A stretch of DNA of 64,000 nucleotides. Source: Escherichia coli. GTDB lineage: Bacteria > Pseudomonadota > Gammaproteobacteria > Enterobacterales > Enterobacteriaceae. Under the pieces are notes generated by a model. It did no database searches and was not told where the DNA came from. It saw only the letters and a list, made by a program, of their open reading frames with translations. Below, piece after piece: positions 6,087-20,300 of the stretch (position 1 is the stretch's first letter; the number at the start of each line of letters is the position of its first letter). The stretch is from assembly GCF_036507355.1 (NCBI RefSeq), contig NZ_AP027877.1. One strand, given 5' to 3'. The translations under genes and the position numbers were made by a program.

Positions 6087-6163
6087 TGGCGGAACGGACG
6101 GGACTCGAACCCGCGACCCCCTGCGTGACAGGCAGGTATTCTAACCGACTGAACTACCGCTCC
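6087..6163 (-). tRNA. aspU: tRNA-Asp (GUC), distal tRNA of rrnH operon
   Basis: Reverse complement matches GGAGCGGTAGTTCAGTCGGTTAGAATACCTGCCTGTCACGCAGGGGGTCGCGGGTTCGAGTCCCGTCCGTTCCGCCA. Confidence 0.93.
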
Positions 6164-6215
6164 ACCGAATTCTTTTACAACCACCGGTTTTATGACCGGC
6201 TTACTGCTTAATTTG

Positions 6216-6335
6216 ATGCCTGGCAGTTCCCTACTCTCGCATGGGGAGACCCCACACTACCATCGGCGCTACGGCGTTTCACTTCTGAGTTCGGCATGGG
6301 GTCAGGTGGGACCACCGCGCTACGGCCGCCAGGCA
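6216..6335 (-). rRNA. rrfH: 5S ribosomal RNA
   Basis: Reverse complement matches E. coli 5S rRNA from TGCCTGGCGGCCGTAGCGCGGTGGTCCCACC to ...GGGAACTGCCAGGCAT; 120 nt. Confidence 0.95.
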
Positions 6336-6427
6336 AATTCTGTTTTATCAGACCGCTTCTGCGTTCTGATTTAATCTGTATCAGGCTGAAAATCTTCTCT
6401 CATCCGCCAAAACAGCTTCGGCGTTGT

Positions 6428-9330
<2,903 letters not shown>

Positions 9331-9513
9331 TCACAACCCGAAGATGTTTCTTTCGATTCATCATCGTGTTGCGAAAATTTGAGAGACTCACGAACAACTC
9401 TCGTTGTTCAGTGTTTCAATTTTCAGCTTGATCCAGATTTTTAAAGAGCAAAACTTCGCAGTGAACCTTTGCAGGTACACTCTGAAGTATTTTTTATTTA
9501 ATCACTACAGAGA

Positions 9514-9589
9514 TGGTGGAGCTATGCGGGATCGAACCGCAGACCTCCTGCGTGCAAAGCAGGCGCTCTCCCAGCTGAGCTATAGCCCC
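9514..9589 (-). tRNA. alaV: tRNA-Ala (UGC), 16S-23S spacer tRNA
   Basis: Reverse complement matches GGGGCTATAGCTCAGCTGGGAGAGCGCCTGCTTTGCACGCAGGAGGTCTGCGGTTCGATCCCGCATAGCTCCACCA. Confidence 0.93.
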
Positions 9590-9631
9590 ATAACATGTAG
9601 TTAAAACCTCTTCAAATTTGCGGTGCAAATT

Positions 9632-9708
<77 letters not shown>

Positions 9709-9776
9709 GTAGAGGTTTTACTGCTCATTTTCATCAGACAATCTGTGTGAGCACTACAAAGAACGCTTCTTTAAGG

Positions 9777-11318
<1,542 letters not shown>

Positions 11319-18068: not shown

Positions 18069-18390
18069 AGGGATTGTATAAAATGGATAAACCAAAGGCG
18101 CACTACCGCCTGTTTCTCCCCTGCTTTCTTTTGCTTTCGGCCTGCACCGTTGATATCAGACAACCAGACTCATCAGCCACAGCGGTAGATGCTGAGGCGA
18201 AAACATGGGCAGTCAAATTCCAGCATCAAAGCTCTTTCACCGAACAATCAATAAAAGAAATAACTGAAACCGATCTCAAACCCGGCGATTTGCTGTTCTC
18301 CTCAAGCCTGGGGGTAACCTCATTTGGTATCCGGGTATTCAGCACTTTGAGGTGTACTGGCAATAGCGGACACTACCATTTGTTCTTTTT

Positions 18391-19209
18391 TTAAGCAGCC
18401 ATCTGATGATATTTTTCCCTGAAGGCTGCCGGGGAGATATTCCCCAGACGAGAGTGACGACGCTGACGATTGTAGAAAATCTCAATGTATTCCCGTATTA
18501 CTGAGATGGCTTCATCCCGGTTATTAAAACGATAGTGGCTCAGGCTCTCATTTTTCAGCGTTCCCCAGAAGCTTTCCATCGGAGCGTTGTCGTAACAGTT
18601 ACCTTTACGCGACATTGATGTTTTCAGACCAAACTGCTCCTGTATGACCCGGTAATCGTATGCGCAGTACTGTGAACCTCGATCAGAGTGGTGGATTAGC
18701 CCGACAGGTGGGCGCTGGCTCCTGAGCGCCATAAACAGGGCTTTACCTGTCAGCTCTTTTGTCATGCGCTCTCCCATGGCGTAGCCGACAATTTCGCACG
18801 TATAAACATCTTTGATGCCAGCGAGGTACAACCATCCCTCCTGTGTGGCAACATACGTCAGGTCCGCCACCCAGACCTGATTTGGTGCTGTAGGAGCGAA
18901 CGTCTGGTTCAGCAGATTTGGCGCAACTGGCAGATTGTGGTTCGAGTTCGTAGTCGCTCTGAACTTGCGTTTCTGCTTACAGCGTAGCCTTAGCTCCTTA
19001 CGAAGACGTGCCAGTCGGTCACGACCAACGATGATGCCATTCTCTGCCAGCTCCGTCTGGAGCCGCCGGGTTCCATATGTTTCGCGAGTGCGGATATGTG
19101 CCACCTTAATCTCCAGTTTTAGCCGCTCATCACTTTGTTTTCTGTCTGAGGGTTCATGCTGTACCCAGTTGTAATAACCGCTCCTGGATACACCAAATAC
19201 CTGACACAT
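18391..19209 (-). CDS. IS3-family transposase OrfB (DDE integrase domain), expressed as OrfAB fusion by -1 frameshift
   Basis: 272-aa ORF with rve/DDE catalytic region (…HHSDRGSQYCAYDY… NCYDNAPMESFWGTLKNE…); coordinates are the ORF from first in-frame start, the true reading frame begins upstream at the slippery site. Confidence 0.85.
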   Translation of the reverse strand: MCQVFGVSRSGYYNWVQHEPSDRKQSDERLKLEIKVAHIRTRETYGTRRLQTELAENGIIVGRDRLARLRKELRLRCKQKRKFRATTNSNHNLPVAPNLLNQTFAPTAPNQVWVADLTYVATQEGWLYLAGIKDVYTCEIVGYAMGERMTKELTGKALFMALRSQRPPVGLIHHSDRGSQYCAYDYRVIQEQFGLKTSMSRKGNCYDNAPMESFWGTLKNESLSHYRFNNRDEAISVIREYIEIFYNRQRRHSRLGNISPAAFREKYHQMAA

Positions 19210-19244
19210 CGCTTCAATGGGAAATTGTTGTCGCCATTGTTCGA

Positions 19245-19547
19245 TTAACGCGTATTTTTCAGCGACTCCTGTGCAAAATACGCTGTTGCTTTTTTTAATA
19301 TATCTCGCTCAAGGCGAGCTTCATTTAACGCCTTACGCAGTTGCAGAATTTCAGATTCCAGTTCAGCCACCGTGCGGGAACCAGGAGTACCGAGCCCTTT
19401 TCTGGCGGCGGTAACCCATTGTCCTAAAGTGCCTTCAGGAAGAGATAATCGGGAAGCGCCTTCACTGATCGAAAGTTGATTTTCAAGAACCGTTCTGACA
19501 GCTTCGGCTTTGAACTCTTTAGAGTAACGTTGGGTTTTTCTGCTCAT
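19245..19547 (-). CDS. IS3-family transposase OrfA (HTH DNA-binding, leucine zipper)
   Basis: 100-aa ORF MSRKTQRYSKEFKAEAVRTV...; ends just after an A-rich slippery sequence. Confidence 0.85.
   Translation of the reverse strand: MSRKTQRYSKEFKAEAVRTVLENQLSISEGASRLSLPEGTLGQWVTAARKGLGTPGSRTVAELESEILQLRKALNEARLERDILKKATAYFAQESLKNTR
19287..19296 (-). other. programmed -1 ribosomal frameshift site of the IS (A-rich slippery sequence TTAAAAAAAG)
   Basis: OrfA codons tta aaa aaa gca (LKKA) lie where the orfB frame overlaps; typical IS3-family A AAA AAG-type motif. Confidence 0.6.
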
Positions 19548-20179
19548 TATTAGCTCCTTCTGATGCCATTCTATTTCAGGAAGGAGTGTCCGTTAAACTC
19601 AGGCTACCTCACTTCTTCCGTCAGTCATGTGGCTATCTATCTGGGTGATAATAACGTTGCAGAAGCGACGGGCGCTGGCGTCCAGATTGTTTCCCTTAAA
19701 AAAGCCATGAAGCACAGTGATAAGCTTTTCGTCTTACGAGTCCCGGACCTTACCCCGCAACAAGCCTCAGATATCGCCGCATTCGCCAATAAAATCAAAG
19801 ATAGCGGTTATAACTATCGCGGCATTGTCGAGTTCATTCCCTTTATGGTGACCCGCCAGATGTGCTCACTAAATCCGTTCTCCGAGGATTTTCGCCAACA
19901 GTGCGTCAGCGGCCTGGCGAAAGCGCAGTTAAGCAGTGTGGGCGAAGGAGACAAAAAGTCGTGGTTTTGTTCGGAATTTGTCACTGATGCATTTGCCAAA
20001 GCCGGGCATCCGCTTACGCTGGCGCAATCGGGCTGGATTAGCCCTGCCGATCTGATGCATATGCGTACTGGCGATGTCTCTGCGTTTAAGCCCGAAACGC
20101 AGTTACAGTATGTTGGGCACCTGAAGCCAGGGATTTATATCAAGGCGGGTCGCTTTGTTGGTTTGACCCGGTGATAAAG

Positions 20180-20300
<121 letters not shown>

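What the first reader, a model, noticed from the sequence alone, without database searches (positions are those of the whole stretch)
19287..19296. Slippery A-run marks the programmed -1 frameshift window of the IS
The transposase is split into orfA and an overlapping orfB in the -1 frame, with TTAAAAAAAG lying in the overlap. This is the standard IS3-family way of producing an OrfAB transposase at low frequency, and it supports the IS being functional rather than a decayed relic.
Basis: partly seen in the sequence, partly recalled or inferred. Interest (0 to 1): 0.2.

Follow-up and report, generated by a model that had tools for sequence, protein, structure and literature searches.

The report
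IS600 transposase programmed -1 frameshift site
The A-run is the already documented ribosomal frameshift site of insertion sequence IS600, a common Escherichia/Shigella mobile element that here sits intact inside the yaeF gene; this is an ordinary, known feature.

Summary
It lies on the minus strand and is 2 nt off: TTAAAAAAAG is window 19298..19289 and the A7 run is 19296..19290. The element is IS600 (IS3 family), 18348..19611. It has 27-nt terminal inverted repeats and a 3-bp CTT target duplication, and it interrupts yaeF. It is 99.9% identical to copies that RefSeq annotates as "IS600 family transposase, programmed frameshift".

In the orfA frame the site reads TTA AAA AAA GCA, so the heptamer is A_AAA_AAA, not the more usual A_AAA_AAG. 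The -1 frame is open from 19308 to the orfB stop. A -1 shift gives a 385-aa OrfAB that matches the IS3 transposase model end to end.

Six nt downstream is a 34-nt hairpin (19283..19250, 9-bp stem, -13.1 kcal/mol). It is kept at the same position in 13 diverged relatives, with U-A/C-G compensation at one pair. There is no upstream SD-like element.

Sharma et al. 2014 (PMC4066793) already list exactly this cassette: IS600, A_AAA_AAA, 6-nt spacer, 34-nt hairpin, shift at codon 86, 385-aa product, called "proven".

The copy looks intact, with one rare A282V change at a variable position. Sequence alone cannot show that it is active.

Already known; low interest.

The parts
18348..19611 (-). Complete IS600 element (1264 bp, IS3 family, IS3 group)
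   Evidence: 99.9% identity over all 1264 bp to RefSeq copies annotated 'IS3-like element IS600 family transposase'. It is the only copy in the window.
19585..19611 (-). Terminal inverted repeat at the orfA-proximal end (5'-TGAGGTAGCC...)
   Evidence: Inverted-repeat pair I1: 27 nt, 70% complementary, ends TG...CA.
18348..18374 (-). Terminal inverted repeat at the orfB-distal end
   Evidence: Inverted-repeat pair I1.
18345..18347 (.). Target-site duplication CTT, left copy
   Evidence: The flanks read ...GCACTT|IS|CTTCTTCC. Removing the IS and one CTT restores a 277-aa ORF that matches the YaeF model 1-274/274 at 529 bits.
19612..19614 (.). Target-site duplication CTT, right copy
19245..19547 (-). 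orfA (100 aa, HTH_Tnp_1 DNA-binding/regulatory protein); stop TAA at 19247..19245
   Evidence: This exact sequence is on record on at least 1000 contigs as 'IS600 ORF1'.
18391..19308 (-). Open -1 frame (orfB frame). The first ATG is at 19209 (272 aa). Encodes HTH_21 and the rve DDE catalytic core.
   Evidence: Candidate catalytic residues are D229, D289 and E325 of OrfAB, in the WVAD, HHSDRGSQY and DNAPMESF motifs. I assigned them by recognising the motifs, not by alignment to a structure.
19290..19296 (-). Slippery heptamer A_AAA_AAA. The 0-frame reads TTA AAA AAA GCA. After the shift the next codon is AGC (19290..19288).
   Evidence: Same motif, shift at codon 86 and 385-aa product as cluster A_AAA_AAA_1 = IS600 in PMC4066793.
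19284..19289 (-). 6-nt spacer (GCAACA) between heptamer and hairpin
   Evidence: PMC4066793 Table S8 gives a 6-nt spacer.
19250..19283 (-). 34-nt stimulatory hairpin. The 9-bp stem pairs GCGUAUUUU (19283..19275) with AAAAUACGC (19258..19250). An optional AAC/GUU extension pairs 19287..19285 with 19249..19247.
   Evidence: MFE -13.1 kcal/mol, z = -2.2. In 14 aligned elements (the window copy plus 13 relatives) 88.7% of cells are paired, against 24-53% when partners are slid; pair 19/42 shows U-A to C-G compensation. Size, spacer and stem length match Table S8 of PMC4066793.
19261..19266 (-). Hairpin-loop segment GUCGCU: candidate 5' arm of a second, pseudoknot stem (hypothesis only)
   Evidence: Complementary to GGCGAC at 19235..19230. 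Duplex energy -10.2 kcal/mol. One compensatory G-C to A-U change in relative L004.
19230..19235 (-). GGCGAC: candidate 3' arm of the pseudoknot stem (hypothesis only)
   Evidence: Kept only in the IS600 clade, and it lies in sequence coding for the conserved W-R of OrfAB.
18074..18347 (+). 5' part of the interrupted host gene yaeF
19612..20174 (+). 3' part of the interrupted host gene yaeF

Best explanation
This is the programmed -1 ribosomal frameshift cassette of insertion sequence IS600, on the minus strand.

Most ribosomes translating orfA read TTA AAA AAA GCA and terminate at the TAA at 19247..19245. That gives the 100-aa OrfA, a DNA-binding protein.

In a small fraction of ribosomes, the two tRNA-Lys in the P and A sites (codons 85 and 86) slip one base 5' on A_AAA_AAA (19296..19290) and re-pair with AAA AAA. 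Decoding then continues with AGC in the orfB frame. The product is the 385-aa OrfAB transposase (...ILKK|SNSVF...), which joins the N-terminal HTH domain to the DDE catalytic core.

The shift is stimulated by a 34-nt hairpin that starts 6 nt after the heptamer (19283..19250). There is no upstream SD-like stimulator. Because OrfAB is the transposase, the frameshift rate limits transposition.

Shown here: the anatomy, the phase, the open frame, the domain content, conservation of the motif and hairpin, and identity to IS600. Taken from the literature: that frameshifting occurs and is hairpin-stimulated. Inferred: the tandem-slippage details and the activity of this particular copy.
For: - Phase and frames are established.
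- The fusion has HTH_Tnp_1, HTH_21 and rve domains. It matches NF033516 transpos_IS3 over 1-369/369 at 413.5 bits, cutoff 160.
- PMC4066793 Tables S4, S6 and S8 list cluster A_AAA_AAA_1 = IS600 [true], with no SD, a hairpin in 85% of 517 genes, hairpin 34 nt, spacer 6 nt, stem 9 bp, shift at codon 86, products of 100 and 385 aa. The text calls it a proven case stimulated by a stem-loop, citing unpublished data.
- A_AAA_AAA was measured in E. coli at 0.41% with no stimulator, 0.82% with the IS911 stimulators and 24.8% with the IS3 pseudoknot.
- The hairpin folds at -13.1 kcal/mol with z = -2.2. It is more stable than the alternative hairpin in 5 of 6 clade members.
- All 16 relatives in register carry A6G or A7G at the same codon position.
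- Hairpin pairing is kept in 88.7% of cells, against 24-53% in slid controls, with U-A/C-G compensation at synonymous positions.
Against: - No experiment on this sequence is available here, and the published 'proven' status rests on unpublished data.
- The five basal hairpin pairs never vary. They lie in a segment that codes in two frames (AYFA in orfA, YA(L/F)I in orfB), so their conservation is confounded by protein constraint.
- The hairpin is A/U-rich and only moderately stable.
- RNAalifold on the seven closest elements prefers a different, mutually exclusive hairpin, columns 12-22 with 28-37.
- Transcriptional slippage on A7 would give an identical protein and cannot be separated from ribosomal slippage by sequence alone.
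Confidence: 0.93

Rival explanations
1. Transcriptional slippage. RNA polymerase adds an extra A on the A7 template, giving A8 mRNAs in which orfA and orfB are in one frame. Ordinary translation then yields the same 385-aa OrfAB.
For: The product would be identical (LKK-SNS). IS elements do use this route (PMC1088944). Sharma et al. note that AAAAAAA is under-represented in all three frames, possibly because of transcriptional slippage. Genomic A8 copies exist, so the run is length-unstable.
Against: Selection against slippage-prone runs, and the IS examples, concern runs of about 9 A or T. None of the relatives has a run longer than 7, and many have A6G in the classical A_AAA_AAG phase. A conserved hairpin at a 6-nt spacing is the signature of ribosomal frameshifting, not polymerase slippage. 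The literature assigns IS600 to -1 PRF.
Confidence: 0.05
2. No recoding. OrfA and OrfB are made separately, with OrfB starting at ATG 19209, and the A-run is only the Lys-Lys codons of a conserved ILKKA motif.
For: An ATG opens a 272-aa orfB 36 nt after the orfA stop. The ILKKA peptide is conserved, so the A-rich codons are partly explained by the protein sequence. A7 runs are not rare in the window.
Against: The IS3 transposase model aligns continuously across the junction, 11-377 of the fusion. The -1 frame stays open for 33 codons upstream of the ATG and encodes conserved residues (EKYALIEQW). Lys is always AAA-AAA or AAA-AAG and never AAG-AAx in 16 relatives, so the synonymous choice preserves slipperiness. 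No SD-like sequence is obvious immediately before ATG 19209 (my reading; not scanned formally).
Confidence: 0.02
3. The cassette is intact but this copy is an inactive relic, so the frameshift has no consequence here.
For: The copy differs from the common IS600 sequence at 18704, which gives OrfAB A282V seven residues before the second catalytic Asp. The exact OrfB allele was seen on only 4 contigs.
Against: That position is variable in relatives (A, K, E, P, N). The rest of the 1264 bp matches widespread copies, including both inverted repeats. A clean 3-bp duplication marks a simple insertion.
Confidence: 0.1

Closest known systems
IS600 (IS3 family, IS3 group; Shigella/E. coli); cluster A_AAA_AAA_1 of Sharma et al. 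2014, PMC4066793
   Same: It is the same element: 99.9% nt identity over 1264 bp. Heptamer, 6-nt spacer, 34-nt hairpin with 9-bp stem, shift at codon 86, and the 100-aa and 385-aa products all match.
   Different: One nucleotide differs (18704, OrfAB A282V). The insertion site in yaeF was not found in any of 5,426 complete E. coli genomes.
IS911 (IS3 family) frameshift cassette
   Same: Both use a -1 shift on an A-rich heptamer at the LKK codons to fuse OrfA to OrfB. Both have a structure starting 6 nt downstream.
   Different: IS911 uses A_AAA_AAG, an upstream GGAG SD-like stimulator and a three-way-junction structure. IS600 uses A_AAA_AAA, has no SD-like element within 30 nt, and has a simple hairpin.
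IS3 frameshift cassette (pseudoknot stimulator)
   Same: Same family and the same logic of OrfAB production. IS600 has a possible loop-to-downstream pairing that would make an H-type pseudoknot.
   Different: The IS3 stimulator is an established pseudoknot. For IS600 the second stem is only a hypothesis with one compensatory change. That IS3 uses an A_AAG-type tetramer motif is my recollection and was not checked here.
IS150 (cluster A_AAA_AAG_37)
   Same: Simple stem-loop stimulator, 6-nt spacer, no SD-like element.
   Different: A_AAA_AAG heptamer, a 48-nt hairpin with a 10-bp stem, and a different IS3 subgroup.
Rfam RF01497 ALIL pseudoknot (IS3411-type stimulator)
   Same: Weak similarity over 19284..19182, mostly from the shared coding sequence GCGUAUUUUGCACAG.
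   Different: The score is 14.3 bits against a gathering score of 50. No stem-loop 2 with an internal loop complementary to the apical loop was demonstrated.

Membership tests
IS3-family insertion sequence | Transposase with N-terminal HTH and a DDE (rve) catalytic core, scoring above the curated family cutoff | tested here: met
   Pfam HTH_Tnp_1, HTH_21 and rve. NCBIfam NF033516 transpos_IS3 at 413.5 bits against a cutoff of 160, covering profile 1-369/369.
IS3-family insertion sequence | Two partly overlapping ORFs, with orfB in the -1 frame relative to orfA | tested here: met
   orfA is 19547..19245. The -1 frame is open over 19308..18391. The frame offset is -1.
IS3-family insertion sequence | Imperfect terminal inverted repeats ending 5'-TG...CA-3' | tested here: met
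   27-nt inverted repeats at 18348-18374 and 19585-19611. The element starts with TG and ends with CA.
IS3-family insertion sequence | Short (3-4 bp) direct target duplication | tested here: met
   CTT on both sides. Excising the IS and one CTT restores full-length yaeF.
IS600 (named element) | Near-identity in DNA to the named element over its full length | tested here: met
   99.9% over 1264/1264 bp to RefSeq features named 'IS3-like element IS600 family transposase'. The ISfinder reference itself could not be consulted.
Programmed -1 ribosomal frameshift cassette | X_XXY_YYZ heptamer in phase with the upstream frame, inside the overlap | tested here: met
   A_AAA_AAA at 19296..19290 is the only in-phase heptamer in 19308..19245.
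Programmed -1 ribosomal frameshift cassette | -1 frame open from the heptamer into the downstream domain | tested here: met
   No stop occurs from 19308 to 18394.
Programmed -1 ribosomal frameshift cassette | Downstream RNA structure starting 4-10 nt after the motif with unfolding energy of at least 7.6 kcal/mol (the rule of PMC4066793) | tested here: met
   The hairpin starts 6 nt after the motif and its first pair is G-C. The energy is -9.0 kcal/mol for the 9-bp stem alone and -13.1 for the full MFE. The rule is quoted.
Programmed -1 ribosomal frameshift cassette | Motif and structure conserved in diverged relatives | tested here: met
   A6G or A7G is present in 16 of 16 relatives in register. 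Hairpin pairing holds in 88.7% of cells, against 24-53% in slid controls, and one pair shows compensatory change. Dual coding constraint is a confounder.
Programmed -1 ribosomal frameshift cassette | Measured frameshift product | not testable with these tools
   PMC4066793 states it is proven, citing unpublished data. No primary data were seen.
Rfam RF01497 ALIL pseudoknot | Covariance-model score at or above the gathering threshold | tested here: not met
   14.3 bits against 50, E = 0.72.
H-type pseudoknot stimulator (IS3-like) | Second stem between the hairpin loop and downstream sequence, supported by covariation | tested here: inconclusive
   GUCGCU (19266..19261) pairs with GGCGAC (19235..19230) at -10.2 kcal/mol. 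It is kept in the 6 IS600-clade sequences, with one G-C to A-U compensation (L004). It is absent in more distant relatives: 64% of cells paired overall.
Transcriptional-slippage IS (A9-type) | Homopolymer run of about 9 or more A/T in the overlap | tested here: not met
   The run is 7 A. The threshold is discussed in PMC1088944.

The most novel reading that the evidence does not exclude
The IS600 stimulator may be an H-type pseudoknot rather than the simple stem-loop reported. In this reading the hairpin loop GUCGCU (19266..19261) pairs with GGCGAC (19235..19230), 14 nt past the hairpin. The same loop segment can instead fold back on the 5' arm (alternative hairpin 19285..19275 with 19269..19260). 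Competing conformers could then set the frameshift rate on the relatively weak A_AAA_AAA heptamer.
Probability: 0.12. Interest if true: 0.25.

Novelty: already known. Interest (0 to 1): 0.07.

Why it matters
The finding has little importance beyond correct annotation. It confirms that the two IS600 ORFs should be annotated as one recoded transposase gene rather than as a pseudogene or two unrelated genes. It also shows that yaeF is inactivated by a clean IS600 insertion.

IS600 is one of the elements that expanded in Shigella genomes, and its frameshift efficiency sets its transposase supply. That is established biology. The only open detail is whether the stimulator is more than a simple hairpin.

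Tried and rejected
1. Rfam scan of 18200..19800 at permissive E-values. It gave only a sub-threshold ALIL hit (14.3 of 50 bits), driven by shared coding sequence, so membership was rejected.
2. Upstream SD-like stimulator. There is no GGAG, GAGG, AGGA or similar within 30 nt, in agreement with Table S4 of PMC4066793.
3. Other slippery sites in the overlap. Only weak tetramers were found (AAAA, UUUU, AAAU), and none has a structure at the right distance.
4. Alternative hairpin B (columns 12-22 with 28-37). RNAalifold prefers it on the seven closest elements and 80% of cells are paired. It is less stable than the published hairpin in IS600 (-8.7 against -13.1 kcal/mol) and in 5 of 6 clade members. 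I kept it only as a possible competing conformer.
5. Pseudoknot stem. The test was inconclusive. A scan of viral contigs for more clade members returned almost only identical IS600 copies and added no informative variation.
6. Search for the yaeF::IS600 junction in 5,426 complete E. coli genomes. It was not found, so the age and spread of this insertion could not be assessed.
7. Exact look-up of the predicted 385-aa fusion. It is not on record, because of the rare V282 allele.
8. DNA-level searches for intermediate relatives in plasmids gave mainly identical copies. Relatives came instead from a genome-contig scan and from a search seeded with a betaproteobacterial relative.

Full report
**Observation.**
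The A7 run is 19296..19290. The quoted coordinates (19287..19296) are 2 nt off, and the strand was not stated. Two minus-strand ORFs flank the run. orfA is 19547..19245 (100 aa). orfB has its first ATG at 19209 and its stop codon at 18393..18391 (272 aa), and it lies in the -1 frame. An A7 run is not itself surprising: the window has 15, against 18.7 expected. Its significance comes from context.

**What the element is.**
- A 27-nt imperfect inverted-repeat pair (18348-18374 and 19585-19611) delimits a 1264-bp element that begins TG and ends CA.
- It is flanked by a 3-bp direct repeat, CTT (18345-18347 and 19612-19614).
- Deleting the element and one CTT restores a 277-aa ORF that matches the YaeF family model end to end at 529 bits. 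This is therefore a simple transposition into yaeF, which lies between proS and nlpE/arfB.
- The 1264 bp are 99.9% identical to copies that RefSeq names "IS3-like element IS600 family transposase".
- IS600-like DNA occurs in 3,486 of 5,426 complete E. coli genomes and on 140 Shigella plasmids.
- This particular yaeF junction is in none of the E. coli genomes. Together with a CssrA Shigella sRNA hit elsewhere in the window, that suggests a Shigella chromosome. This is an inference.

**Anatomy of the recoding site.**
- In the orfA frame the sequence is ATA TTA AAA AAA GCA (I L K K A). The in-phase heptamer is therefore A_AAA_AAA, and the G belongs to the next codon.
- The last -1-frame stop upstream is TGA at 19311..19309, and the orfA stop is 19247..19245. 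A -1 shift anywhere in 19308..19245 would give a fusion. A_AAA_AAA is the only X_XXY_YYZ heptamer in phase there.
- Tandem slippage of the two tRNA-Lys gives ...ILKK-SNSVFCTGVAEKYALIEQW..., a 385-aa protein.
- This protein contains HTH_Tnp_1, HTH_21 and rve domains. It aligns with NCBIfam transpos_IS3 over profile positions 1-369 of 369 at 413.5 bits, cutoff 160.

**Stimulators.**
- No SD-like sequence lies within 30 nt upstream.
- Six nt downstream of the heptamer a hairpin forms. GCGUAUUUU (19283..19275) pairs with AAAAUACGC (19258..19250). The loop is 16 nt and has an inner CAG/CUG helix. An AAC/GUU extension is possible at the base.
- The MFE is -13.1 kcal/mol, z = -2.2, and 5-7 of 200 shuffles fold at least as well.

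**Relatives.**
- I collected relatives from a species-level genome collection and from plasmids. They are at 37-68% OrfAB identity and come from Beta-, Gamma- and Alphaproteobacteria, a Synergistaceae MAG and a Paraliobacillus (Firmicutes) genome.
- In all 16 that align in register, an A6G or A7G run sits at the same Leu-Lys-Lys codons. It reads either xxA AAA AAG or xxA AAA AAA G.
- In a gap-free 14-sequence alignment, the hairpin at the IS600 position is paired in 88.7% of cells, against 24-53% when the 3' partners are slid by 1-3 columns.
- Five basal pairs are invariant. Pair 19/42 switches between C-G (10 sequences) and U-A (3 sequences, including IS600) at positions that are synonymous in the relevant frames.
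- The caveat is that this segment codes in two frames, so invariance alone is not evidence of structure.

**Comparison with the literature.**
- Sharma et al. 2014 (PMC4066793) list cluster A_AAA_AAA_1 as "Fam IS3/grpIS3/IS600 [true]". It comprises 517 genes, with no conserved SD and a conserved hairpin in 85% of members. The hairpin is 34 nt, the spacer 6 nt and the first stem 9 bp. The shift is at codon 86, giving 100-aa and 385-aa products. Each of these figures matches what I derived independently.
- Their text calls it a proven case stimulated by a stem-loop, citing unpublished data.
- They measured A_AAA_AAA in E. coli at 0.41% without a stimulator, 0.82% with the IS911 stimulators and 24.8% with the IS3 pseudoknot. 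The figures for A_AAA_AAG are 0.29%, 4.26% and 39.0%.
- A_AAA_AAG and A_AAA_AAA together make up 72% of the heptamers found in the IS1 and IS3 families analysed together.
- The feature is therefore already known in detail.

**Rivals.**
- *Transcriptional slippage* would give the same protein. However, it is documented for runs of about nine (PMC1088944). No relative has more than seven A's, and a conserved hairpin at 6 nt points to the ribosome.
- *Independent OrfB expression without recoding* is disfavoured. The conserved coding sequence upstream of the orfB ATG is continuous, and the family model aligns across the junction.

**Is this copy functional?**
- It differs from the commonest IS600 sequence at one base (18704), giving OrfAB A282V seven residues before the second catalytic Asp.
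- The exact OrfB allele is rare, seen on 4 contigs, whereas OrfA is the common allele.
- The position is variable among relatives: A, K, E, P or N.
- Both ends, the duplication, both ORFs and the whole cassette are intact. This fits an active copy but does not prove it.

**Loose ends.**
- RNAalifold on the seven closest elements prefers a mutually exclusive hairpin, columns 12-22 with 28-37, which is window 19285..19275 with 19269..19260. It is less stable than the published hairpin in IS600 and in 5 of 6 clade members.
- The hairpin loop GUCGCU is complementary to GGCGAC 14 nt past the hairpin, with a duplex energy of -10.2 kcal/mol.
- This pairing is kept in the six IS600-clade sequences, with one G-C to A-U compensation in L004. 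It is not kept in more distant relatives, and it lies in coding sequence.
- A scan of viral contigs for further clade members added nothing informative.
- I rate a pseudoknot as possible but unlikely.
- The Rfam ALIL model scores far below threshold.

**Verdict.**
The feature is already known and of low interest.

Noticed in passing
L029 (plasmid NZ_CP058683.1) 552-559; L043 6449, L044 9283, L074 7401 (IMG/VR contigs): Some IS600 copies have an A8 run instead of A7. This puts orfA and orfB in one frame, giving a 385-aa uninterrupted CDS that is annotated as a plain transposase. Three matches of 135 cassette matches in viral contigs show this, and two of the three are on one contig. They are either real +1A mutants with constitutive OrfAB or homopolymer sequencing errors.
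   Followed up: partly
window 18704 (minus-strand T; OrfAB residue 282): This is the only difference from the common IS600 sequence. It causes A282V, seven residues upstream of the second catalytic Asp. The exact OrfB allele is on record on only 4 contigs, and the position is variable in relatives.
   Followed up: yes
window 18385-18394 and 19289-19298: The 10-mer TTAAAAAAAG (minus strand) occurs twice in IS600: at the frameshift site, and again overlapping the orfB stop codon (GCT TAA AAAAAG). Other exact 10-11-nt repeats occur in the same 1.5 kb, so this is probably chance.
   Followed up: no
window 18074-18347 and 19612-20174: The host gene yaeF (permuted papain-like enzyme) is split by the IS. 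This junction was found in none of 5,426 complete E. coli genomes. The window is therefore probably from Shigella or an unsampled lineage.
   Followed up: partly
window 20219-20295 (minus strand): A REP-derived naRNA4 (Rfam RF02564, 92.8 bits) lies in the yaeF-nlpE intergenic region, just downstream of the interrupted gene.
   Followed up: no
window 45560-45669 (minus strand): There is an Rfam hit to CssrA, 'Chromosome-encoded Shigella sRNA A' (136.6 bits). This fits a Shigella/E. coli chromosome.
   Followed up: no
window 6090-11318 (minus strand): A complete rRNA operon is present: 16S, tRNA-Ile, tRNA-Ala, 23S, 5S and tRNA-Asp. There is also a StyR-44 hit (9338-9446) between the tRNA-Ala gene and the 23S gene.
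   Followed up: no
window 19249-19310; L005 1741-1820; plasmid hits H153-H175: The frameshift window is the stretch best conserved at nucleotide level between IS600 and distant IS3-family elements (Ralstonia, Xanthomonas, Cupriavidus, Pseudomonas, Agrobacterium, Burkholderia), at 79-91% over 43-99 nt (most alignments 62-99 nt). It was the only segment that aligned in the blastn searches. This fits the combined pressure of two-frame coding and an RNA signal.
   Followed up: partly
L019 (Sodalis sp. dw_96) 1501-1758: An IS600-like orfA (81% identity) matches only residues 1-86, stopping exactly at the frameshift codon. No A-run was found nearby, so it may be a decayed or truncated copy.
   Followed up: no
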